A DNA stretch of 62,837 bases, counting the filler, from Collodictyon triciliatum (lineage: Eukaryota), in assembly GCA_043381765.1 (NCBI GenBank). It is 52 parts of 52 records of this genome, joined end to end, with 100 filler letters (N's around TTAATTAATTAA, not from the genome) between each part and the next. Parts side by side here need not be neighbours in the genome. Positions count along the whole stretch, not along the records: positions 49,693 to 50,797 come from JBHJMP010012284.1; 51 more parts are not named here. One strand, 5' to 3'. Both the position numbers and the translations under genes were made by a program. This document shows, in pieces, positions 6,083-50,797 of this stretch. The stretch's first letter is position 1, and every line of letters begins with the position of its first letter. Below the pieces are notes generated by a model. That model made no database searches. It saw nothing but the letters and a program-made list of their open reading frames with translations, and was not told the DNA's origin.

Positions 6083-7198
<1,116 letters not shown>

Positions 7199-21879: not shown

Positions 21880-22991
21880 GCTCCAACTCTTTTATTTGGT
21901 GACTCGACGGTACCGCAATCAGGTATTTGGGGTACAGATGGGTCTATTAGAATTGGAACAGATGGTGTAGAAAGGTTTAATATTGGTAACACGGGCGCGA
22001 CTCTTACAGGCAATCTAGTTATGGCCGGAACTAACGGCGGCATTGGTGTTTTGCAAAATACAATAGGTAATAATCCTAATTCAGGGTTGTATTCAACAAC
22101 AAGCACTAATTCAGGCATTCGATTTTCAGACACTAATTCCAATTTTCGTGTATTATGCAATAATATGAATGTGTTAGACTGTACCCAGCAATCTACTGAA
22201 GGTATTGTAAGTATAGAAGAGGGCCTATTAGTGAAAAAAACTTTCCGAACGCCATTTTCGACCCAAGGTCACACAGCCAGTTTTATAACAACAACGACCT
22301 CTATGATGATAAGAATTGATATAAGCAATAATCAACCAGGCGCTATCGCTTTACCCTTTTTACAAAATAGAGCAAATGGCCAACAACATATCATTATTCC
22401 TTTCAAAAGTTCTACTAATACAGGCACGTTCTTTATATGGACTAGTAATACGGTAGGAGTTGAAATTCACATAATGAATAATTCAACAAGAACTGTTGTC
22501 TCAGGAACTACACAATTTCAATTATTTGAAGGTGGGGTATACACTTGTGTATGGCATTGGATTTCTTCAACTACTGGAATTTGGTATGTTTGGATTAACG
22601 GAATACCACCTACTAGTGTTCCCGATCCGTTTGTAGTTGGTACGTTTATAGATTTTGTCTCCCAAAATTCAGGTGCTAGAATACAGGGAGTAAATTCAGG
22701 AGCAGCCTCTACTGTGGGTATGGTTCTTAATACAACATTAACTACTAACTTTACCGTGAATGATACCGAAGTTCAAAATTCGCTACGATTGTTTAAAGCG
22801 CCGATTACCGATTTTATAATACACGACAGCGGAACGCACAATGTGAGTCGAAATTCACCAAATAAAATCGTATTGACAAAACAGTCATCGGGATCTTCAA
22901 ATGCAGTAATTATATTTCCAGTAAGTACTGATGTCCCGAATGGACTAGAAATTCAAGTATTTGTCTGGATGTTGCCAAATAGAAATGGAAC
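21880..22991 (+). CDS. Intron-less G/T/S/N-rich beta-strand protein, virion-fibre / tail-fibre-like (open across the whole contig)
   Basis: About 370 codons with no stop; APTLLFGDS..SGIWG.DGSIRIGTDGVERFNI resembles viral fibre repeats. Confidence 0.5.
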
Positions 22992-25515: not shown

Positions 25516-25762
25516 CCAGGGTTGTCAGGCCTTTCCCCAGGAAATTCGCGGCGGTGATTGTGCTCACCAGCGGGTTGGCAATTGTCTGGAATGCAGGTTT
25601 GATTCCTGTTCCCTGCAGCCCCAACTCAACCAGTCCGCCGCTCGCTCGATTCAAATCCGAGTAGGCTTTGTCTAATCGTTGCAGTTTGTTTAGTGCGTTG
25701 TCCGTGTGCCTGGTAAGAAAGCGACCAACACCTCTGCTTGCTTTTCTAACATCAACAATCAT
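25516..25762 (-). CDS. N-terminal part of a hypothetical protein, viral core/structural-like
   Basis: MIVDVRKASRGVGRFLTRHTDNALNKL...; no intron; divergent from the next ORF. Confidence 0.5.
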
Positions 25763-25795
25763 ACATTAGCCAAGAAATTTTATATAAGTTATATT
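25763..25795. promoter_or_regulatory. Candidate 33-nt bidirectional promoter containing TATATAA
   Basis: Only 33 nt separate the two divergent ATGs; TTTTATATAAG lies centrally. Confidence 0.4.
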
Positions 25796-26626
25796 ATGAG
25801 CTTCCGTCGTTTTACTAAACAAGAATTTATTTATTATATGACAAATGCGAGGCCTGATCTAGCAACTGAAGAAGAGCCTGATCTAACAGGAATGACAAGA
25901 GTTGAAGTTTATGAGTATTTACAAGCTATGACTACAGACCCGTTACCTACAAAAACAAAGACTACAATAGCAGATAAATATGCCTATGAAGAAAGATGGG
26001 AATATGTGTGGAAAAAATATAAAGAATTTTTCCCAAGTGCACCTGAATCTATTAAAAATCATCCAAAATTTAAGTTTGGAGTTTTTGAAACTAGGAAAGA
26101 ACCTGTGAAAGAACCTGAGAAATCAGAGCCTGATGACCCCTTAGACGAGCCACCCGAAAGTTTAGGTAAGCCTGGAGGCTCAAAAGCTTCAGCTGTGCCA
26201 ATTAGGGCAACCCCTCTTATAGATATGACTGATTATGAAGAAGCACCAGTACAAGTACAAACACCAGTACAAGACGAAGACGAAGACGAAGACGAAGACG
26301 AAGACGAAGACGAAGACGAAGACGAAGGAAAAGAAGAAGGAGAAGGAGAAGGAGAAGGAAAAGGAAAAGAAAAAGAATCAGAAGAAGATAAGGGACGATT
26401 GGATTCAACAATGGATGAGCTAAATGCGTATTTTGCACAATTTGACAAGGCAATAGAAAGCCCCGAAGGAGAGAAAGAATTGCAAAGAATTGCAGACGAG
26501 GTTATAAAAGAAATTGGAAATAAAAAAGAGTATTTGACAATAGGATACCTTCAGAAAAAAAATGCGCGTGGTCAGAGAGTAGCATCTAAAGTGTACACAG
26601 GTATGAATCTTTGTTTTAAAGAGTGG
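25796..26626 (+). CDS. Intron-less hypothetical protein with an acidic (DE)n/(EG)n tract, 3'-truncated
   Basis: MSFRRFTKQEFIYYMTNARPDL... open for about 277 codons to the contig edge. Confidence 0.6.
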
Positions 26627-26759: not shown

Positions 26760-26782
26760 AAAACAAAACAAAAAACAAAAAA

Positions 26783-27161
26783 AACATTTCATCGATTGTT
26801 GGGAGTTGTGATTTCAATATGTAACATCTTGCAAACAGATAAGTGTCGGTAACCAAATTATGACACAATAAAACCGTATCGTTGGTTTTGTCATAATCAT
26901 CTGCATTCTTTACAATCGACTAAAGAGATGTTTTCAGATTTCGATAGCCTGGTTTACAGACTTTAGATTCTCAGACTAAAGACGTTTTCTTTTCTTCACC
27001 TGAAAGTCTTTGTTTTACTTTTTCCTTTAGAAAACTACCGAGTTTTCAATTGTAATAAAACTTAAGTCGATTAGTCAATTTAATAAATATACCTGCATGA
27101 AATCCATTCATGTAAAATTAAGCATCTACCGAGACTTTCAAAATATGCGCTTTGTGGCAAA
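26783..27161 (-). mobile_element. Fanzor1-like element copy B: decayed 5' ORF end plus conserved leader
   Basis: Aligns by eye with 50403-50797; encodes KTSL*SIVKNADDYDKTNDTVLLCHNLVTDTYLFARCYILKSQLPTIDE with stops and a frameshift. Confidence 0.7.
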
Positions 27162-33743: not shown

Positions 33744-34539
33744 GTATCAATATGTCAATATTTCATGTCTTTTATGTCTTTTATGTTTTTTATGTCTTTT
33801 ATGTCTTTTATGTCTTTTATGTCTTTTATGTCTTTTATGTCTTTTATGTCTTTTATGTCTTTTATGTCTTTTATGTCTTTTATGTCTTNNNNNNNNNNNN
33901 NNNNNNNNNNNNNNNNNNNNNNNNNNNNNNNNTTAATTAATTAANNNNNNNNNNNNNNNNNNNNNNNNNNNNNNNNNNNNNNNNNNNNACATAAAAGACA
34001 TAAAAGACATAAAAGACATAAAAGACATAAAAGACATAAAAGACATAAAAGACATAAAAGACATAAAAGACATAAAAGACATAAAAGGCGTACAGGCGTA
34101 CAGGCACACAAGAACATCCACCCCCGAAGGCGCATTGAGTGTGCGGCACATACCAACGCATCTCTGGTTCAAACAACAGGGCAAATTGCGTGTTGGTATG
34201 TTAGCCTATTGATTTCGGGTCTTTCACCAATATTTTTGTGTAACATGTGTTTGAATAATTACGACGCTTGTTCCGTTCTGATTATATTGAATTGCTTTTA
34301 AAATTTTGAATTGAATTCAGGAAAAAAGAACGGAATCAGACATAACCACATAAGTGTACAGAGACATTGCAGAAATGTGACAGGGTATGCAGCTGATTCT
34401 AAGGTGCAGTGACATAGTAAGCAGCATGTGAAATATTAGGTACAGGATACACAGTGAAAACAGGGTTAGAGATTGGTGTTATTGAATATATATTCCACAT
34501 ATAGGTTACTATTATTGGAATAAACGTAAATACTGCTGG

Positions 34540-35040
34540 CGGAGAAGAAAATGTTGGCAACACTTCGCGTAACTGGGACTCGACCCGCCAATCGACACCA
34601 AGCAACCCACGACTCTAGAACACTCTGGACAGTCACAAGGGGACTTATGCTGTGTTCCTTATGAAGTGCGCGTATATTCTCGCTCTAGTCATTCACCCGA
34701 ACGAAAAATCAATGTATCGAGGCTTGAAAGCCTCGTGCAATACAGCTTCCTGAACAGCTTGCTGAAATACACCCGCATTCTTCGCTACTCTGACTGCAAG
34801 CGAAGAGAGATGTGGGAATGTGTCGTAAGATATCTCCCACAGCATATCCAGCTACTGCTATCCACGCAGCCAATCAACCAGTTGGGACACCCATCTGACC
34901 AACTCGCTGTCACTGATTTCTTTCCAGTGCTAGCCTATCCGCTTTATTGTCTTCTCTTACTCACGTTTGCTCTCTGCCACGCGCACACCTATCTTCAACT
35001 TTTTTTACGTTTTTGTTCTGTTGCACCTCGCATTGAATAT
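34540..35040 (+). mobile_element. Non-LTR retrotransposon 3' end, family B, decayed and probably 5'-truncated
   Basis: Clear nucleotide homology to 58810-59227 (ORF end and 3' UTR); frameshifts; ends in QLAVTDFF. Confidence 0.65.
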
Positions 35041-36059
35041 GTAAAAGAAAACTTGATAATTAATATATACAACCGATTGTTTAATGAACAGAAACCTTNN
35101 NNNNNNNNNNNNNNNNNNNNNNNNNNNNNNNNNNNNNNNNNNTTAATTAATTAANNNNNNNNNNNNNNNNNNNNNNNNNNNNNNNNNNNNNNNNNNNNCT
35201 TTGATTCCATCGCGCTAATTCGATTTTTTTTTTCCAAGCACTGGATTAGATGATATTTCCCAGCCTCATCCGCATGTTGTTTGCATGGCCAGGTGCATCT
35301 TGCAAAAGTTTCTCTGCCATGAAAGTGGGAAAAGTACATCGTCCAAAATCCAATCTGCTGCACATCATTCATCATCGATGTGTAAGAGAATACAATTTTT
35401 CTGTTTTCTTTTACCTTTCACGCAGGATAAATATTTTATTTTTCTCATTCTTCTCATCCCAGAGCGTAATTCCCGACGCGCAAGTACCTATTCCTTGCCA
35501 CCTTTCGCAGCTTATGACGTCGACTGAATACGGATATGCGATGCATGTTTCCAGTTGCTAGGATTATGTTGTGCTTCTTTGTGAAATGGTTGCTCATCGC
35601 CGCGGCTAAATGTTGCAGCGTCTATCAATCGGTCAATAAACTCAAAGCATCACTAATATAGATTAGCCAAGCAGATAAAAAAGTAATCACTCCTCTTTTG
35701 AGTAAATATTGAAGTTCAAGGATGATAGAATCAAAATTATTCGAAGGGGCATTTATTCGTTTGATATCGATTTTAAAAGCTCTAATCTACATTCTAAAAC
35801 TTGATGTTTATCTTGTGTTTGGCATCGAGCCTCTTCATTGATGACTCTGCACTGTACTGGGTAAATGACTGTCCTCATGTAATTAACAAAACGACAGATG
35901 CGTCAATCATCGCGACTCGGACGAAGAGATGTATTTCGCTCAGAAGACTGCTGATAGTATTTGGTGTCAAATAAGTTTTGATTGGAAAAAAATGACAGTA
36001 ATAGCGAAGAAATGAAAGTGCCACTAATTTATAATAAAGGAAAAAAGGAAAGGCAACCC

Positions 36060-37821: not shown

Positions 37822-38530
37822 CCTCTCCAGCATCGTTGTATGTGATTAGAGCGGAATCGAATGCCTTAAATTGTTGTGTACTTGGCTTCTGTATCAACGC
37901 CATCGAGCGAATGCATGTCACGGTTTTCTTTGTGATTGTTTGGAATCGGAACCGAATCTGAGCTTTGATTTCGGAATCGCCAGATATCTAAAGTATTGAA
38001 GCAAACAACGATATGGTAGAAAGTTCTTTTGATGAAAACAGACGGGTGATGGGACACTATTACCATTCATATTAACAATGATTGTGAATGTCAGAATAGA
38101 TTATAAAATAGAGGGAATGAGAATGGCTCTTTTATCCATCGATGGCTATTGTAAATGACAGAAGATTGTGTCATCATGCTAAGAAACAAAAGCATAAAAA
38201 AAAAAAAAACGCAATCTGACCCGCGGATCGAAAAGAAAAGCCTGTCCTCTTGTCGAGTTTGGCGGCACTTCGCCCGTGCAAGCATAACGAAGGCACTCGA
38301 TGATGGTCTATCTCCAACAAAGCCGATAAGCAACAAGAAACGCCACATGCATCAAGATTAAAGATCTGCAGAAGAGCATATAAGTTGACCAGAGAGAATG
38401 TACCAACCGTCTTTCCCGATCCATTCGCACCAACGATCACAGTCAAAGGCTTGAAAAACTCAATGACATATTGATCTTCGGGGCTGTAACTGCGGATTCC
38501 ACGTATCATCATCTTTTCGATTGTTGCCAT
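37822..38530 (-). CDS. RAD50: DNA repair ATPase RAD50, 5' exons
   Basis: [17 protein letters not shown]...[19 protein letters not shown] / [24 protein letters not shown] / VTCIRSM...QFKAFDS. Confidence 0.95.
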
Positions 38531-40119
38531 CTCTTGACTCCTTCGAATACTCCGCAAGCGGGGCTGGAAGTGTTTTATGGTTTTTTATGGTTTTTTATGG
38601 TTTTTTATGGTTTTTTATGGTTTTTTTATGGTTTTTTATGGTTTTTTATGGTTTTTTATGGTTTTTTATGGTTTTTTATGGTTTTTTATGGTTTTTTATG
38701 GTTTTTTATGGTTTTTTATGGTTTTTNNNNNNNNNNNNNNNNNNNNNNNNNNNNNNNNNNNNNNNNNNNNTTAATTAATTAANNNNNNNNNNNNNNNNNN
38801 NNNNNNNNNNNNNNNNNNNNNNNNNNCTGAAAGCCGACTCGACCGAGCGCCGCTTCCTCGACCTTTTCTTCCTTTCTGCAGTCCCACTTTGCGGTGTGGA
38901 CATGACAACTCGTCCTGCTTTTTTTTTGTTTTTTTTGTTTTTTTGTTTTTGTTTTTACTAAACAAATCGCAGCACCCTATAATTATCTTCTGCGTTGTTT
39001 CCGGTTGAACACACAGGCATCAAACGAAACAACGAAGCGCGAAAAAAAGCAAGGCAAGTAGGATTGTCATTTGCGTAATTTTTTTTTATTGAGTGAGAAT
39101 AAGAATATATGTTTGGTAGTCTTTTTTATTTTATTTTTATTCGGTCTGTATCTTGAGATACTTAAGTTCGTCTCATTTTCACTCAGCCTTGCATTATTTG
39201 GCTATATAGTATGTTTTTGGCAAAGTTTCGCCGTTCATACATCGTGGGAATGAGTAGCACGCGGAATCCAAAAAACAGTAGCTTTTCGTCTTTTTCTTTC
39301 TTCTTTCCTTCTTTTTTTTCCTCCTGTGAAAGATGCTGTCATCGCCTGTAAGCTTCGTGATGAAAGAGCGGAGCCAAGACTTTATTTCTTTCGCTCTTGT
39401 TTTTTTTTTCTCAATACGAATCCAAGCCATGCAGACGCACAAGATAGTGGTGGCTTCTATCACGAAGAAATAGAAAAGAGAAGGAAAAAAAGAGAGAGAA
39501 GGGCTGTATTGCAAGAATCCCTAATCCACTGTTCTTGAATCTGCATCCAAGAAAGTATCATTTAAATCATATGTAATCACCAACGCAAATACGTCATTTT
39601 CTTTCCTTTCCATTTCTTTTTTATGACCATAAAATCGATGCACCAAAATAAATCTACATCATCTAAAAGGATAAGTTGAAAAATGTATGTCTAAATGTTA
39701 AAGAGTGAATAATATAGGAAAAAATACCTCCTATTTGCACAAAGTCTCCTGCGCTTCTATTCTCAACCACCAGGCTTTTCTATTTCCGTATATCCGTGAT
39801 TGCCGAGAGCGAAGCAGGCTTTTGCAAATGCGTCGGGGAATGCGCTTTTGAGCACGACTTCAACTGGTTGGATATCTTTTCCAAGTCCTGCGAATTGCGA
39901 AGCAAAACCCGTGCGCGGAGCTGCTCCGATTGCTTNNNNNNNNNNNNNNNNNNNNNNNNNNNNNNNNNNNNNNNNNNNNTTAATTAATTAANNNNNNNNN
40001 NNNNNNNNNNNNNNNNNNNNNNNNNNNNNNNNNNNAAAGAAAAGAAAAGAAAAGAAAAGAAAAGAAAAGAAAAGAAAAGAAAAGAAAAGAAAAGAAAAGA
40101 AAAGAAAAGAAAAGAAAAG

Positions 40120-45565: not shown

Positions 45566-47392
45566 GTAACGCATGACTGTGATTAGATTAAAATATAAGG
45601 CATTGAAGTTCTTATCTATTTTTTAACAAGGTATCAAGTAAAAGTAAAAATAAATAAATAAATCTAAAGGCCTACATATAATGTTAATGTTCTTAAATGA
45701 AATATATCCTGGAAAAATAATAATAGTGAGTGCGTACGCACCACCGCCACCCCAAAAATTCGGGACATCTCAAGGAAACTCGTCTGCCAACAGCTCAGTC
45801 AAAGCCGGAGTCGGAGAAGAAGATTCGTCTGTTTACGTTTTCATTTCTTTTGTCATTATTTGACTATTTTATTCTATGTATGTATGTATGTATGTATGTA
45901 TGTATGTATGTATGTATGTATGTATGTATGTATGTATGTATGTATGTATGTATGTATGTATGTATGTATGTATNNNNNNNNNNNNNNNNNNNNNNNNNNN
46001 NNNNNNNNNNNNNNNNNTTAATTAATTAANNNNNNNNNNNNNNNNNNNNNNNNNNNNNNNNNNNNNNNNNNNNAACCAATAAAAAACCAATAAAAAACCA
46101 ATAAAAAACCAATAAAAAACCAATAAAAAACCAATAAAAAACCAATAAAAAACCAATAAAAAACCAATAAAAAACCAATAAAAAACAATGAGCAGAATCA
46201 TTTATGAAAGCAGAAGAATGACACATGCATCTTCGATGATGAAAAAAAGTTGGTCACCTCCTGTTTGCAGAGTTTTTTTGCTTAATGTGGCTAAGTGTCC
46301 ACGCCAGAAAGAATTGCCACATCAAGCCGCATGCTAGCCACCCAAGCAAAACGCACATGACAAAAACGAACCATGCGCCCGACGCCACGTATTCTTTCCT
46401 CACGTTGTTAGAGTTCAACCATCCAAACACCCACGAGCATCCACAGTAGTAAAGTCATGAAGGTGTGGTTGCTGAATAAATCCTCAATCCCTTCAGATAC
46501 ACTATTATATCACATTACTCACCGAGGTTGACAGTTGATGGTAGGCGTATTAACAGGAATTAAGAAACATGAAGAGGCGAGAAACGGGCGCTACCTCAAT
46601 AGCAAACAGAACGCATAAAGCCGCGCATTGACAAACGTTCTTTCCTTTCGCACTGAGCCAAACAAGGGCTTCCCTGAAAAGTGTGCCTCTTTGAGAATTG
46701 TCTCTCAGCGGCTGAGCAAGGCACACCTTTTTGTTGGCACATAGGAACAAAAGCTATGTCCAACCCATCAGCATCAGCATCAGCATCAGAATCACTGCCA
46801 AAACATCCGCCAAGGAGAAGGTTGAGCCGACCCACTCGGGAGGCCATAACACATCCTGCATCCTCAAGTGGCTTTTAGACAGGACAACCAGGTCTGCTGC
46901 TGTATTATCATCGACGGTCGATATGAGGCAGAAGTGGGCCTATTGCCACCTGTTCTACTTCTGCGCGCTTGCCTTCAGCCCGCTTCGATCCTTTTCAAAC
47001 CATTCCAGAATAAGAAAAAAGTAAAAAAGTAAAAAAGTAAAAAAGTAAAAAAGTAAAAAAGTAAAAAAGTAAAAAAGTAAAAAAAGTAAAAAAGCAAAAA
47101 AGCAAGTAAAAAAGCAAGAAAGTAAAAAAGTAAAAAAGTAAAAAAAGTAAAAAAAGTAAAAAAAGTAAAAAAAGTAAAAANNNNNNNNNNNNNNNNNNNN
47201 NNNNNNNNNNNNNNNNNNNNNNNNTTAATTAATTAANNNNNNNNNNNNNNNNNNNNNNNNNNNNNNNNNNNNNNNNNNNNAAAGAGAAAGAGAAAGAGAA
47301 AGAGAAAGAGAAAGAGAAAGAGAAAGAGAAAGAGAAAGAGAAAGAGAAAGAGAAAGAGAAAGAGAAAGAGAAAGAGAAAGAGAGAACCCACA

Positions 47393-47687
47393 TAGGCATG
47401 TTTTCAAGCAGCTTGATCACGGCATGGGGAATAAACTTGAGTGCCCCAAGGTGAAAGCGCTTGTCGTGGCGGAACTTGCGGCTACTAAGGTCGCCGTGAT
47501 CCTTGATGATCTTGCGGACGTGCTCGGGCGGCAGATCGTCTTTAGCCGCCTCCACATAGCCCACTTTGCGCTTGTCGGCGTAGCGCTTGCTGTTGAATTC
47601 GAGCCACTTGCGTGCTCGCGAGCGGATCGTGTCTTCGTTCACATCCGGTGCGACCACGTTCGCAGTTTCGTTGGAATCGATGTCCAT
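47393..47687 (-). CDS. PRP8: Pre-mRNA splicing factor Prp8, N-terminal exon
   Basis: ARKW...[60 protein letters not shown]. Confidence 0.97.
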
Positions 47688-48169
47688 CTGAGGAAAAAGC
47701 CAAAGCCAAAGCCAAAGCCAAAGCCAAAGCCAAAGCCAAAGCCAAAGCCAAAGCCAGCAAGTGGCGCAGGTGGAGCAGGATATGAGTCAGACGGCGAATG
47801 TGAGAGTCAAATGGCGAGGATTTGAAAGGTTCAAGGTGGAAGTTTTGTTCAGCTATAAGCCATCCACAGCGCAAACTGTGGCTACGACACAGACGCGGGC
47901 TTTGGATGTAGCTGCCTTGCTGATATGGGCCGGTCTGCTTGGAGCGTTTCTTTTATTCGCGAGTTGCACCTGATCCGTCCCATTGGCAGCCATGAAAGCT
48001 GATTGTTCTTTGTTTTCGAAAGTTGGATTCTGATCGCTGTCCGTGATGATTCGGTGAATTGGTTCTGATTTGGATTCTTAGTCTGGAATGTGGTCAATGA
48101 AGGGACAAAGCCCTAGAAATTGATTGGCCAAGTTCCACAAAAACTCAATCCAACGAAATCTCAACAAAT

Positions 48170-49692: not shown

Positions 49693-50797
49693 CATGTATT
49701 TAAAATTGTAGCCTCTTTGATGAAGACCCTCTTCTTCATTTCAAAGAACTTATCCCATAGTGTCTCTTTGCATCCTGATATATTCTTCATTAATAATGGT
49801 TTTCGACCTGACACTAATAGATCTATCAAACATGCAGTATCTAGAGTAATATGACATGGTATATTGTCAGTTCTTCTAGAGATTGGTTAAAACAGTTTGG
49901 TTCCAATTTCCCCAAAAATGCGATTCATGCAAATCAGACATGGAATGTACTTACTTGGATTGGCTTTGCTTCATATTCGATACCATTTACAATATCGCTG
50001 GGAATGATACGATTCAAATTTATTTTAGCCCATCCTTTATAGTATTCCGATATTTCGAGTTTCTTGAAGATGACTTCTTTTTTTTAACTTTCGTAACTCT
50101 GCCTTTTTAACAGCTCCCGTAATATTCTCATCTTTAGGAACTGTTTGATATATAAAGCACAGTAACCTCTCTACAAAATGCTCCTTCATGTTATTATGAT
50201 AAGCTGTTAACACTTGCTTCGCCAAGTACGGTAATGCATGAGACAGTCCAACTAACGGAAAGCGTTCTTCTCGGGACAGAAGGAATAGAAAATCATAGAG
50301 ATAAAAAGTAATCATGTCATAGCCCTTTTCTGGTTTTTTTTTAAAAAAACTTGCGAGTCTACCTTGTGAAACTACTCTGAAGTGTCTTTAAAACGTACAA
50401 AAAAACCATTTCATCGATTGTTGGGAGCTGTTGTGATTTCAATATGTAACATGTTTCAAACAGATAAGTGTCGGTAACTAAATTATGACACAATAAAACC
50501 GTATCGTTAATTTTCTCATAGTCATCCGCATTCTTTACAATCGACTCCAGAGATGTTTTCACATTTCGATAGTGTGGTTTTAAAGACATTAGATTCTCAG
50601 ACTGAAGACATTTTCTTTTTTTCATCTGAAAGTCTTTGTTTTATTTTTTCCTTTAGAAAACCACGGAGTTTTCAATTTTAATAAAACTTTTGTAAATTAG
50701 TCAATCAGTCAATTTAACAACGAAAAAACTGCACAAAATCAATTTAGGTAAAACTAAGCATCTACCGAGACTTTCAAAGTGTGCGCATTGTGGCAAA
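49693..50797 (-). mobile_element. Fanzor1-like element copy A: N-terminal part (about 310 codons) of a frameshifted RNA-guided nuclease gene plus 5' leader
   Basis: Successive frames: YRNVKTSLESIVK...INDTVLLCHNLVTDTYLF..CYIL...LPTIDE; LPYLAKQVLTAYHNNMKEHFVERLL.FI; LDTACLIDLL...LMKNI...KETLWDKFF.MKKRVF. This is the motif order of Fanzor1 before RuvC-I; the contig ends before RuvC. Confidence 0.72.

What the first reader, a model, noticed from the sequence alone, without database searches (positions are those of the whole stretch)
49693..50797. Multi-copy Fanzor1-like RNA-guided nuclease element
Seen: three consecutive minus-strand frames join into a protein of about 310 aa with the motifs VKTSLESIVK, INDTVLLCHNLVTDTYLF..YIL..LPTIDE, YLAKQVLTAYHNNMKEHF and DTACLIDLL..KNI..K..LW..FF. 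A second diverged copy (26783-27161) shares the ORF start and about 170 nt upstream. Known: Fanzor1 proteins of protists, fungi and giant viruses show this N-terminal pattern ahead of TDG and RuvC-I, and act as omega-RNA-guided endonucleases carried by transposons. Inference: two copies in 52 contigs imply a sizeable family, so an intact copy or a reconstructable consensus with its own omega-RNA and TAM may exist. Both copies here are pseudogenes, and RuvC and the 3' end are not in the window.
Basis: partly seen in the sequence, partly recalled or inferred. Interest (0 to 1): 0.82.

Follow-up and report, generated by a model that had tools for sequence, protein, structure and literature searches.

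The report
Decayed front half of Fanzor1 gene
A 1.1-kb contig of a fragmented eukaryotic genome holds the broken front half of a Fanzor1 gene (a transposon-borne RNA-guided DNA cutter), one of many decaying copies; the family is already known and this copy is dead.

Summary
The window is 52 unlinked contigs of about 1.1 kb from a eukaryote.

Contig 49693-50797, minus strand, carries four collinear reading-frame pieces, 308 aa in all, starting at ATG 50623-50625. They align to residues 3-314 of a 634-aa protein, P0006. P0006 matches the solved Fanzor1 of Spizellomyces over residues 14-607 at E 9e-37.

A profile of the N-terminal half alone, which included three window pieces, finds only the three solved Fanzor1 proteins in the PDB, at E 7e-17 to 1e-15. 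The next hit is at E 0.31.

The copy is dead. It has three frameshifts, an in-frame TAA at a conserved Gln and a Cys at a conserved Arg. The contig stops four residues before the TDG motif, so the RuvC domain, zinc finger, omega-RNA and element ends are absent from the window.

A second, worse copy at 26775-27161 is 87% identical over 401 nt. Two public runs of coded organisms hold 176 and 186 diverged contig pieces, so the family is multi-copy.

The nearest full-length relatives (41-43% identity) lie in giant-virus contigs, many of them inside about 2.4-kb transposons with inverted ends. This is a new member of a known kind, of low to moderate interest.

The parts
50626..50797 (-). Non-coding stretch upstream of the ORF, 172 nt, running to the contig end. 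It is shared with copy 2. The left boundary of the element is not reached.
   Evidence: The 87% alignment with copy 2 runs to the last base of the contig. In runs X2 and X4 the summed depth of related contigs falls from 70-255 (bins 50618-50691) to 13-52 beyond about 50692 (table 2).
50623..50625 (-). ATG start codon, followed by a Lys/Arg-rich N-terminus (MKKRK).
   Evidence: It aligns with the N-termini of P0006, P0004, P0016, P0019 and P0009.
50383..50625 (-). Piece A, 81 aa, aligned to P0006 residues 3-87. It covers the WED N-terminal strand (VKTS motif) and the first REC helices.
   Evidence: In the P0006-SpuFz1 alignment the KTS motif lies on SpuFz1 H21-T22-K25. The chain offset of 394 was derived, and the contacts come from PMC10432273.
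50376..50382 (-). Frameshift 1. Seven bases lie where the close relative P0001 has two codons. It is not in a homopolymer.
   Evidence: Coordinates. P0001 reads through this place in one frame.
50079..50375 (-). Piece B, 99 aa, aligned to P0006 residues 91-186. It is the REC domain with the family's best-conserved helix (TAYHNNMKEHF). Cys at 50157-50159 replaces an Arg kept in 95 of 96 full-length relatives.
   Evidence: At 50159 the related contigs read the other base in 15 contigs of X2 (depth 283 of 305) and 9 contigs of X4 (depth 197 of 197), which gives Arg (table 3).
50078..50085 (-). Frameshift 2. One surplus base in a run of eight A.
   Evidence: Pieces B and C are separated by one base. 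P0002 reads through. Related contigs show several different indels here (table 4).
49964..50077 (-). Piece C, 38 aa, aligned to P0006 residues 186-223.
49964..49969 (-). Frameshift 3. One base is missing, so pieces C and D overlap by one base.
   Evidence: Five contigs in each of X2 and X4 carry one more base behind 49968, at depth 73.5 of 136.1 and 99.3 of 146.4 (table 4).
49695..49964 (-). Piece D, 90 aa, aligned to P0006 residues 224-314. It covers the end of REC and the second part of WED (ITLDTA motif). The contig ends four residues before the TDG motif.
49887..49889 (-). In-frame TAA at the position of a Gln kept in 95 of 96 full-length relatives (P0006 Q249).
   Evidence: At 49889 the related contigs read the base that gives CAA: 12 contigs in X2 (depth 163.6 of 163.6) and 11 contigs in X4 (depth 173.2 of 180.7) (table 3).
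26775..27161 (-). Copy 2. It holds the same upstream stretch and the first 70 or so codons, 87% identical to copy 1. The start codon reads GTG, there is a TAG in the SLESIVK motif, and there are small deletions. It runs out into a T-rich simple repeat at the contig end.
27162..27837 (-). DNA upstream of copy 2, 676 nt. It is either part of the element's left arm or host flank. No match to any other contig of the window.
   Evidence: It cannot be compared with copy 1, because contig 1 ends at the matching point.

Best explanation
Contig 49693-50797 holds the 5' half of a decayed, intronless Fanzor1 gene. Fanzor1 is the eukaryotic, TnpB-derived, omega-RNA-guided DNA endonuclease carried by DNA transposons.

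The part present encodes the recognition lobe. That is the WED N-terminal strand, the REC helical domain and the second WED segment, which in SpuFz1 hold the TAM duplex and the guide-target heteroduplex. The nuclease lobe (RuvC, zinc-ribbon NUC), the 3' omega-RNA and both element ends lie beyond the contig.

This copy cannot make a protein. It carries three frameshifts, one nonsense codon and a Cys at a conserved Arg. Copy 2 is more decayed still. Each copy and each database fragment has lesions of its own, as expected of transposon copies that decay neutrally after insertion from a once-intact source.

Shown here: homology, the lesions, the multi-copy state, and intact catalytic residues and a 3' structured RNA in distant full-length relatives. 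Inferred: that the ancestor of these copies was an active RNA-guided nuclease on a transposon with inverted ends, like its giant-virus relatives.
For: Homology to Fanzor1:
- PDB phmmer of piece B at E<=10 gave 2 hits, both Fanzor1: PpFz1 at 0.013 and GtFz1 at 0.15.
- An exhaustive phmmer search gave 19 hits at E<=1e-3. Three are full length: P0006 (634 aa), P0016 (682 aa) and P0019 (627 aa).
- P0006 against the PDB gave SpuFz1 at 9e-37 over residues 14-607, PpFz1 at 7e-34 and GtFz1 at 7e-16. These were the only 3 hits at E<=0.01.
- An N-terminal-only profile (18 rows, 313 positions, with window pieces A-C) gave GtFz1 7e-17, SpuFz1 6e-16 and PpFz1 1e-15. The fourth and last hit was at E 0.31.
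- The window pieces cover P0006 residues 3-314, with 108 of 300 positions identical. Of the 67 covered positions that are >=95% conserved, 43 are kept.

Lesions. At three of them, related copies in other runs read an open frame or the conserved residue.

Copy number: copy 2 is 87% identical over 401 nt. Runs X2 and X4 hold 176 and 186 contig pieces at 80-99% likeness, with 5-21 contigs at most of the 40 listed variant places (1-4 at the five places between 50310 and 50406).

Full-length relatives:
- 350 stretches in IMG/VR encode a relative.
- Among 96 full-length proteins, D372 is kept in 96, E530 in 95, D581 in 94, and T318, D319 and G320 in 96, 96 and 95.
- 43 of 79 loci with enough flank have inverted ends scoring >=22. 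The best score in any of the 79 shuffled controls was 14.
- The elements measure 2274-2490 bp and run TA-CACC...GGTG-TA.
- Two covarying stems lie at the 3' end of the ORF.
Against: - No RuvC half, zinc finger, omega-RNA, inverted end or target duplication can be seen for this lineage. Only 2 of 52 contigs match any of the 19 family proteins.
- Nothing above 49% identity to the close fragment P0002 was found in the metagenome or viral contigs.
- Pfam gave no family for pieces A, C and D. For piece B it gave only an unrelated DUF5958 match below threshold, at E 0.0082.
- A word-based protein search of piece B found nothing.
- 24 of the 67 covered positions that are >=95% conserved in the viral clade differ in the window copy. 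The lineage is therefore distant, and some of its properties may differ.
- One frameshift lies in an A8 run and could in principle be an assembly error.
Confidence: 0.9

Rival explanations
1. The gene is alive. On this reading the frame changes are assembly errors or short introns, and the contig is simply a piece of an intact Fanzor1 gene.
For: One of the three frameshifts lies in a run of eight A. The assembly is very fragmented: 52 contigs of about 1.1 kb, many ending in microsatellites. The start codon and an N-terminus of the family's type are intact.
Against: - The pieces abut without gaps on the relatives, so there is no room for introns.
- Two frameshifts are outside homopolymers.
- There is also a TAA at a Gln kept in 95 of 96 relatives and a Cys at an Arg kept in 95 of 96.
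- Five lesions in about 930 nt are too many for assembly error.
- Copy 2 and the database fragment P0001 have different lesions of their own.
Confidence: 0.05
2. The stretch is part of an integrated giant-virus genome, or viral DNA in the sample. On this reading it is not a transposon family of the host.
For: All 80 listed loci of the viral scan, out of 350 positives, encode relatives. Some metagenome loci are the same contigs as viral ones; for example L005 and L024 share a 254,533-base contig. Bao and Jurka raise the same suspicion for the Hydra element HMa-1 (PMC3627910, section 7).
Against: - Identity to the viral proteins is only 41-43%.
- Both copies are decayed and lie on contigs with simple-sequence repeats of the kind seen on many other contigs of the window, several of which carry plain eukaryotic genes.
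- The two copies differ by 13%.
- Two coded organisms hold 176 and 186 diverged pieces. That is the picture of a family which multiplied in cellular genomes.
Confidence: 0.06
3. The organism reads TAA and TAG as Gln (a ciliate-type code), so the stops are sense codons.
For: The TAA falls exactly on a conserved Gln. The TAG of copy 2 falls on a Glu or Lys position where Gln would be tolerable.
Against: - A changed code does not remove the three frameshifts.
- Related copies read CAA at the TAA place in 12 contigs of X2 and 11 contigs of X4. That fits a single C-to-T change in this copy.
- No other coding contig of the window was seen to need such a code, but no systematic test was run.
Confidence: 0.02

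Closest known systems
SpuFz1, the Fanzor1 of Spizellomyces punctatus (PDB 8GKH, 9CEU-9CEZ; Saito et al. 2023, PMC10432273), with GtFz1 (9CER) and PpFz1 (9CF0)
   Same: The N-terminal profile that includes the window pieces aligns over positions 2-305 with SpuFz1, at E 6e-16. This span covers the WED strand (KTS), the REC helix (..NN.KEHF..LLRFIN) and the ITLDTA segment. Full-length relatives share TDG, the RuvC D-E-D residues and the zinc ribbon.
   Different: - Similarity to the window itself is weak: piece B alone scores E 0.013 to 0.15.
- The SpuFz1 residues that read the TAM (Q129, Q130, N133; PMC10432273) are not conserved in P0006 in the alignment, so a different TAM is expected.
- The window copy is a broken half-gene with no nuclease lobe.
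[quoted passage not shown]
   Same: The nearest full-length relatives found here lie on giant-virus contigs. In 43 of 79 loci they sit in units of 2274-2490 bp with inverted ends of about 30-40 nt reading TA-CACC...GGTG-TA, which carry only the Fanzor gene. This is the architecture the paper describes for Fanzor-only Mariner derivatives with TA duplications.
   Different: - The window protein is 41-43% identical to the longest of these relatives (P0004, P0006).
- Neither end of the window's element can be seen.
- No 'TACACC'-type end was noticed by eye in the 676 nt upstream of copy 2. This was a reading, not a search.
Prokaryotic TnpB (IS200/IS605, IS607) and Fanzor2
   Same: They share ancestry of the RuvC and zinc-ribbon half. 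P0019 and P0006 give weak Pfam matches to Cas12f1-like_TNB (PF07282), at E 3.8e-5 and 0.0089, both below the curated cut-off.
   Different: The N-terminal profile found no TnpB or Fanzor2 structure at E<=1. The enlarged REC domain seen here is the Fanzor1 type (PMC10432273).

Membership tests
Fanzor1 | N-terminal recognition lobe (WED strand, enlarged REC, WED) homologous to solved Fanzor1 proteins | tested here: met
   The profile with window pieces A-C hits only GtFz1, SpuFz1 and PpFz1, at E 7e-17 to 1e-15, with the next hit at 0.31. Piece B alone hits only PpFz1 and GtFz1.
Fanzor1 | RuvC catalytic D...E...D after a TDG motif | not testable with these tools
   The contig ends four residues before TDG and no other contig of the window matches. 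In 96 full-length relatives D372, E530 and D581 are kept in 96, 95 and 94. That these residues are the catalytic triad rests on the alignment to SpuFz1, the motif in PMC3627910 and recall.
Fanzor1 | C4 zinc ribbon between RuvC-II and RuvC-III ([TS][TS]-x-x-C4...RD motif of Bao and Jurka) | not testable with these tools
   Absent from the window. In the 96 relatives T533, S534, C537, C538, C540, C567, R580 and D581 are each kept in 92-95.
Fanzor1 | omega-RNA encoded at the 3' end of the ORF, up to the right end of the element | not testable with these tools
   The 3' end is not in the window. In 30 viral relatives (chosen from 37 distinct tails) there are two stems with compensatory changes. 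Seven of 18 predicted pairs change on both sides. A second hairpin forms in 29 of 30 sequences with four different stem sequences.
Fanzor1 | Carried by a DNA transposon (inverted ends, target duplication), multi-copy | tested here: inconclusive
   The multi-copy state is met: 2 of 52 contigs, and 176 and 186 pieces in runs X2 and X4. The ends cannot be seen, because contig 1 stops inside the shared upstream stretch and the 3' part is missing.
Fanzor1 | Open reading frame able to give a protein | tested here: not met
   Copy 1 has three frameshifts and a TAA. Copy 2 has GTG for ATG, a TAG and small deletions. This bears on activity, not on descent.
TnpB / Fanzor2 | Short REC of about three helices, and an HTH-type N-terminus in some members | tested here: not met
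   No TnpB or Fanzor2 chain was hit at E<=1 with the N-terminal profile. No HTH_OrfB_IS605 hit appeared in Pfam.

The most novel reading that the evidence does not exclude
The source lineage, an unidentified and possibly freshwater eukaryote, may harbour a large and still partly intact Fanzor1 family. It would form a deep branch of its own, at most 43% identical to the longest relatives found (P0004, 308 aa; P0006, 634 aa) and at most 49% to any locus with flanking DNA in the collections searched. It would have its own omega-RNA and TAM.

At three of the window copy's lesions most related copies read an open frame or the conserved residue. Intact natural copies may therefore exist.
Probability: 0.3. 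Interest if true: 0.5.

Novelty: new member of a known kind. Interest (0 to 1): 0.3.

Why it matters
Fanzor1 nucleases are compact eukaryotic RNA-guided DNA cutters used as genome-editing scaffolds. Each deep new lineage may bring a new TAM and guide architecture.

This window adds little to that. It shows only that one more eukaryotic lineage carries, or carried, a multi-copy Fanzor1 family, and that its nearest full-length kin are the abundant giant-virus elements. The copy itself is dead and lacks the catalytic half.

The finding would gain value only if a naturally intact full-length copy were found in the source organism or its relatives.

Tried and rejected
- The whole genome of the window is not held, so no genome-wide copy count or extension was possible.
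- Pfam on the four pieces gave nothing useful.
- A word-based protein search of piece B for longer proteins gave 0 hits at E<=0.01 among 229 candidates.
- PDB phmmer of piece A gave 0 hits. Piece D gave only two herpesvirus egress-protein matches at E 0.35 and 0.49, taken as noise.
- Rfam and tRNA scans of the window gave 0 matches each.
- The repeat finder on the whole window was swamped by microsatellites and the N spacers. blastn was used instead.
- I at first took the third break for a GT...AG intron. I rejected this once the other frame read straight on in register with P0002 and P0006.
- Sequencing runs: no RNA holder is listed, and no run holds more than 0.20 of the sampled words. The lake and freshwater metagenome holders have small shares. 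Only X1 (1 piece) and X3 (6 pieces) were laid, so no habitat is claimed.
- The metagenome scan (23 loci) and the second viral scan (7 loci) found nothing above 49% identity to P0002. No extended copy of this lineage was obtained.
- Exact-sequence look-up shows the close fragments P0001 and P0002 sit on unnamed contigs of 714 and 626 bases.
- This scan's earlier findings hold nothing for this genome or sequence.
- No tree was built, because no outgroup sequence could be brought into the script box.
- No structure was predicted, because the sequence evidence was already decisive.
- The host taxon was not determined.

Full report
**What the window is.** The 62,837 bases are 52 separate contigs of 1,102-1,124 bases, joined by N and TTAATTAATTAA spacers and sorted by length. 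Many end in microsatellites. Several carry fragments of ordinary eukaryotic genes: a P-type cation ATPase C-terminus, an SMC/Rad50-type N-terminus, an HMG box, TPR_12 repeats and LRRs. No rRNA, tRNA or other Rfam family is present, and no whole genome is held for the window. The finding covers exactly one contig, 49693-50797. Neighbouring coordinates are therefore not genomic neighbours.

**Checking the observation.** The four quoted motifs stand on the minus strand. From ATG 50623-50625 the reading runs through four pieces:
- A: 50383-50625, 81 aa.
- B: 50079-50375, 99 aa.
- C: 49964-50077, 38 aa.
- D: 49695-49964, 90 aa.

The pieces total 308 aa. Between them lie three breaks:
- a surplus base within 50376-50382;
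- a surplus base in the A8 run 50078-50085;
- a missing base at about 49964-49969.

Piece D also holds an in-frame TAA at 49887-49889. I first took the third break for a GT...AG intron. The other frame, however, reads straight on in register with relatives, and the pieces map to P0006 residues 3-87, 91-186, 186-223 and 224-314 without gaps. There are therefore no introns.

The second copy is confirmed. Window 26775-27161 matches 50397-50797 at 87% over 401 nt. It was the only other hit among the 52 contigs. Copy 2 has GTG in place of the ATG, a TAG inside the SLESIVK motif and small deletions. It runs out into a T-rich simple repeat at its contig end.

**What it is.** Pfam gave no family for pieces A, C and D, and only an unrelated DUF5958 match below threshold (E 0.0082) for piece B. 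A word-based search found nothing either. The following searches identified the gene:
- phmmer of piece B against all PDB chains at E<=10 returned two sequences, both Fanzor1: Parasitella PpFz1 at E 0.013 and Guillardia GtFz1 at E 0.15. Both align on the TAY.NN.K/E.HF helix.
- An exhaustive phmmer search of 1.84 billion representatives gave 19 hits at E<=1e-3. Two short fragments are 71-72% identical (P0001, P0002), several fragments are 33-49% identical, and three are full-length proteins (P0006 634 aa, P0016 682 aa, P0019 627 aa).
- P0006 matches SpuFz1 (8GKH) at E 9e-37 in one alignment over residues 14-607, PpFz1 at 7e-34 and GtFz1 at 7e-16. Nothing else matches at E<=0.01.
- To test the N-terminal half on its own, I built an 18-row profile. 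It contained six N-terminal fragments, the first 318 codons of nine viral loci, and window pieces A, B and C. It hits only GtFz1 (7e-17), SpuFz1 (6e-16) and PpFz1 (1e-15). The next hit is noise at E 0.31, and no TnpB or Fanzor2 chain appears.

**Which part of the protein.** In the P0006-SpuFz1 alignment, subtracting 394 for the MBP tag places SpuFz1 H21, T22, K25, Q129, Q130, N133, Q148 and R157 exactly on the letters named in the structure paper (PMC10432273, passages seen). Three points follow:
- The window's VKTS motif is the WED strand that stacks on the first guide-target pair.
- The TAYHNNMKEHF..LL(R)F helix is the REC helix along the heteroduplex.
- The TAM-reading residues of SpuFz1 are not conserved in P0006, so a different TAM is expected.

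The contig thus encodes the recognition lobe only. It ends four residues before T318-D319-G320 of P0006. tblastn with all 19 family proteins hit only the two known contigs. The nuclease lobe, the zinc ribbon and the 3' RNA are therefore not in the window.

**State of the copy.** Besides the three frameshifts and the TAA, the copy has Cys where 95 of 96 full-length relatives have Arg (P0006 R159). Overall, 24 of the 67 covered positions that are >=95% conserved in the viral clade differ.

I laid Logan contigs of four public runs on the contig at 80% likeness or more. Runs X2 and X4, from coded organisms A and B of one study, gave 176 and 186 pieces. Their likeness classes (99+ / 95-99 / 90-95 / under 90) were 11/37/76/52 and 16/34/75/61. 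At most of the 40 listed variant places 5-21 contigs carried the variant; at the five listed places between 50310 and 50406 there were only 1-4. Two lake metagenomes gave 1 and 6 pieces. In these related copies:
- The TAA place reads the base that gives CAA in 12 contigs of X2 (depth 163.6 of 163.6) and 11 contigs of X4 (depth 173.2 of 180.7).
- The Cys codon reads Arg in 15 contigs of X2 (depth 283 of 305) and 9 contigs of X4 (depth 197 of 197).
- Five contigs in each run carry the base that the window copy lacks at frameshift 3, at depth 73.5 of 136.1 and 99.3 of 146.4.
- At frameshift 2 the copies show a mixture of indels. At frameshift 1 few related contigs align at all.

The database fragment P0001 reads through frameshift 1 but begins in a wrong frame. 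It is itself a broken copy. Lesions private to each copy are the signature of transposon copies decaying independently. Whether X2 and X4 are RNA or DNA is not on record, so nothing is said about expression.

**Relatives and how the family works.**
- A scan of IMG/VR with the full-length alignment found 350 stretches that encode a relative. The 80 kept lie on viral contigs, many of them labelled as giant-virus bins.
- From the 103 loci in hand at that point I took the 93 ORFs of 500 aa or more, plus P0006, P0016 and P0019, giving 96 proteins. D372 is kept in 96, E530 in 95, D581 in 94, T318, D319 and G320 in 96, 96 and 95, and the cysteines C537, C538, C540 and C567 in 92-95.
- Nucleotide similarity between loci stops about 20-60 or about 400-440 nt upstream of the ATG and about 60-100 nt past the stop.
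- In 43 of 79 loci with enough flank, inverted ends score 22-38, against a maximum of 14 in the 79 shuffled controls. They bound units of 2,274-2,490 bp that read TA-CACC...GGTG-TA.
- These are Fanzor-only Mariner/Tc1-type elements, as described by Bao and Jurka (PMC3627910; passages, section 7 read).
- For 30 of the 37 distinct 3' tails, the last 100 nt of the ORF plus the right end give a stem with compensatory changes. Seven of 18 predicted pairs change on both sides.
- A second hairpin spans the stop codon. It forms in 29 of 30 sequences, with four different complementary stem sequences. This is what an omega-RNA scaffold of two stems would look like.

All of this is shown for relatives that are only 41-43% identical to the window protein. 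For the window's own lineage it is inference. No closer relative with flanking DNA was found in the metagenome contigs (23 loci, at most 49% to P0002) or in the viral contigs (7 loci, at most 43%).

**Rivals.**
- A live gene with assembly errors is unlikely. There are five lesions, only one of them in a homopolymer, and other copies differ at those places.
- A giant-virus insertion or viral contamination is unlikely. Identity to the viral proteins is low, the copies are decayed and carry simple-sequence repeats like many other contigs of the window, and related organisms hold many diverged copies.
- A ciliate-type code would explain the two stops but not the frameshifts.

**Comparison with what is known, and novelty.** Fanzor1 has been known since 2013 from fungi, protists, metazoans (Mayetiola, Hydra) and large DNA viruses (PMC3627910). 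It was shown in 2023 to be an omega-RNA-guided endonuclease found in fungi, protists, arthropods, plants and giant viruses (PMC10432273, passages). Three other papers were seen only as a search listing with the start of the abstract: PMC10530073, bioRxiv 2023.08.09.552727 and PMC11832414.

Earlier notes of this scan describe Fanzor1 in Mariner-type transposons of giant viruses. My own loci show the same.

The window adds a new, deep and apparently high-copy lineage in an unidentified eukaryote, seen only as dead half-genes. It is a new member of a known kind, with interest 0.3.

Noticed in passing
L024-L103 (viral contigs), for example L038:5518-7900: A very uniform giant-virus Fanzor1 clade: 350 stretches in IMG/VR. 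In 43 of 79 loci with enough flank it sits in elements of about 2.3-2.5 kb with inverted ends reading TA-CACC...GGTG-TA. A covarying two-stem RNA overlaps the ORF's 3' end, and the stop codon lies inside the second hairpin.
   Followed up: partly
window 34629-34986 and 58868-59227 (contigs 33989-35098 and 58124-59227): A second repeat family in the window: about 360 nt at 87% identity, in opposite orientation on two contigs. Its nature was not examined.
   Followed up: no
window 21880-22989 (+): An ORF of 370 aa open over the whole contig, rich in Gly, Thr, Asn and Ser, with no Pfam family. It looks unlike the other contigs' gene fragments and might be foreign (bacterial, phage or viral).
   Followed up: no
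window 25694-26626 (+): An ORF of 311 aa running to the contig end, with an acidic tail and no Pfam family.
   Followed up: no
window 47283-47786 (-), 6511-6921 (-), 38177-38584 (-): Fragments of conserved eukaryotic genes. By eye the first resembles the N-terminus of the splicing factor PRP8 (recalled, not tested). Pfam gives a P-type ATPase C-terminus and an SMC/Rad50-type N-terminus for the other two. They could be used to place the host taxon.
   Followed up: no
P0001 (139 aa, NCBI contig of 714 bases): This database 'protein' is a gene call on another broken copy. Its first 40 or so residues are the family's N-terminus read in a wrong frame. They match the out-of-frame ORF 26814-26909 of copy 2.
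   Followed up: partly
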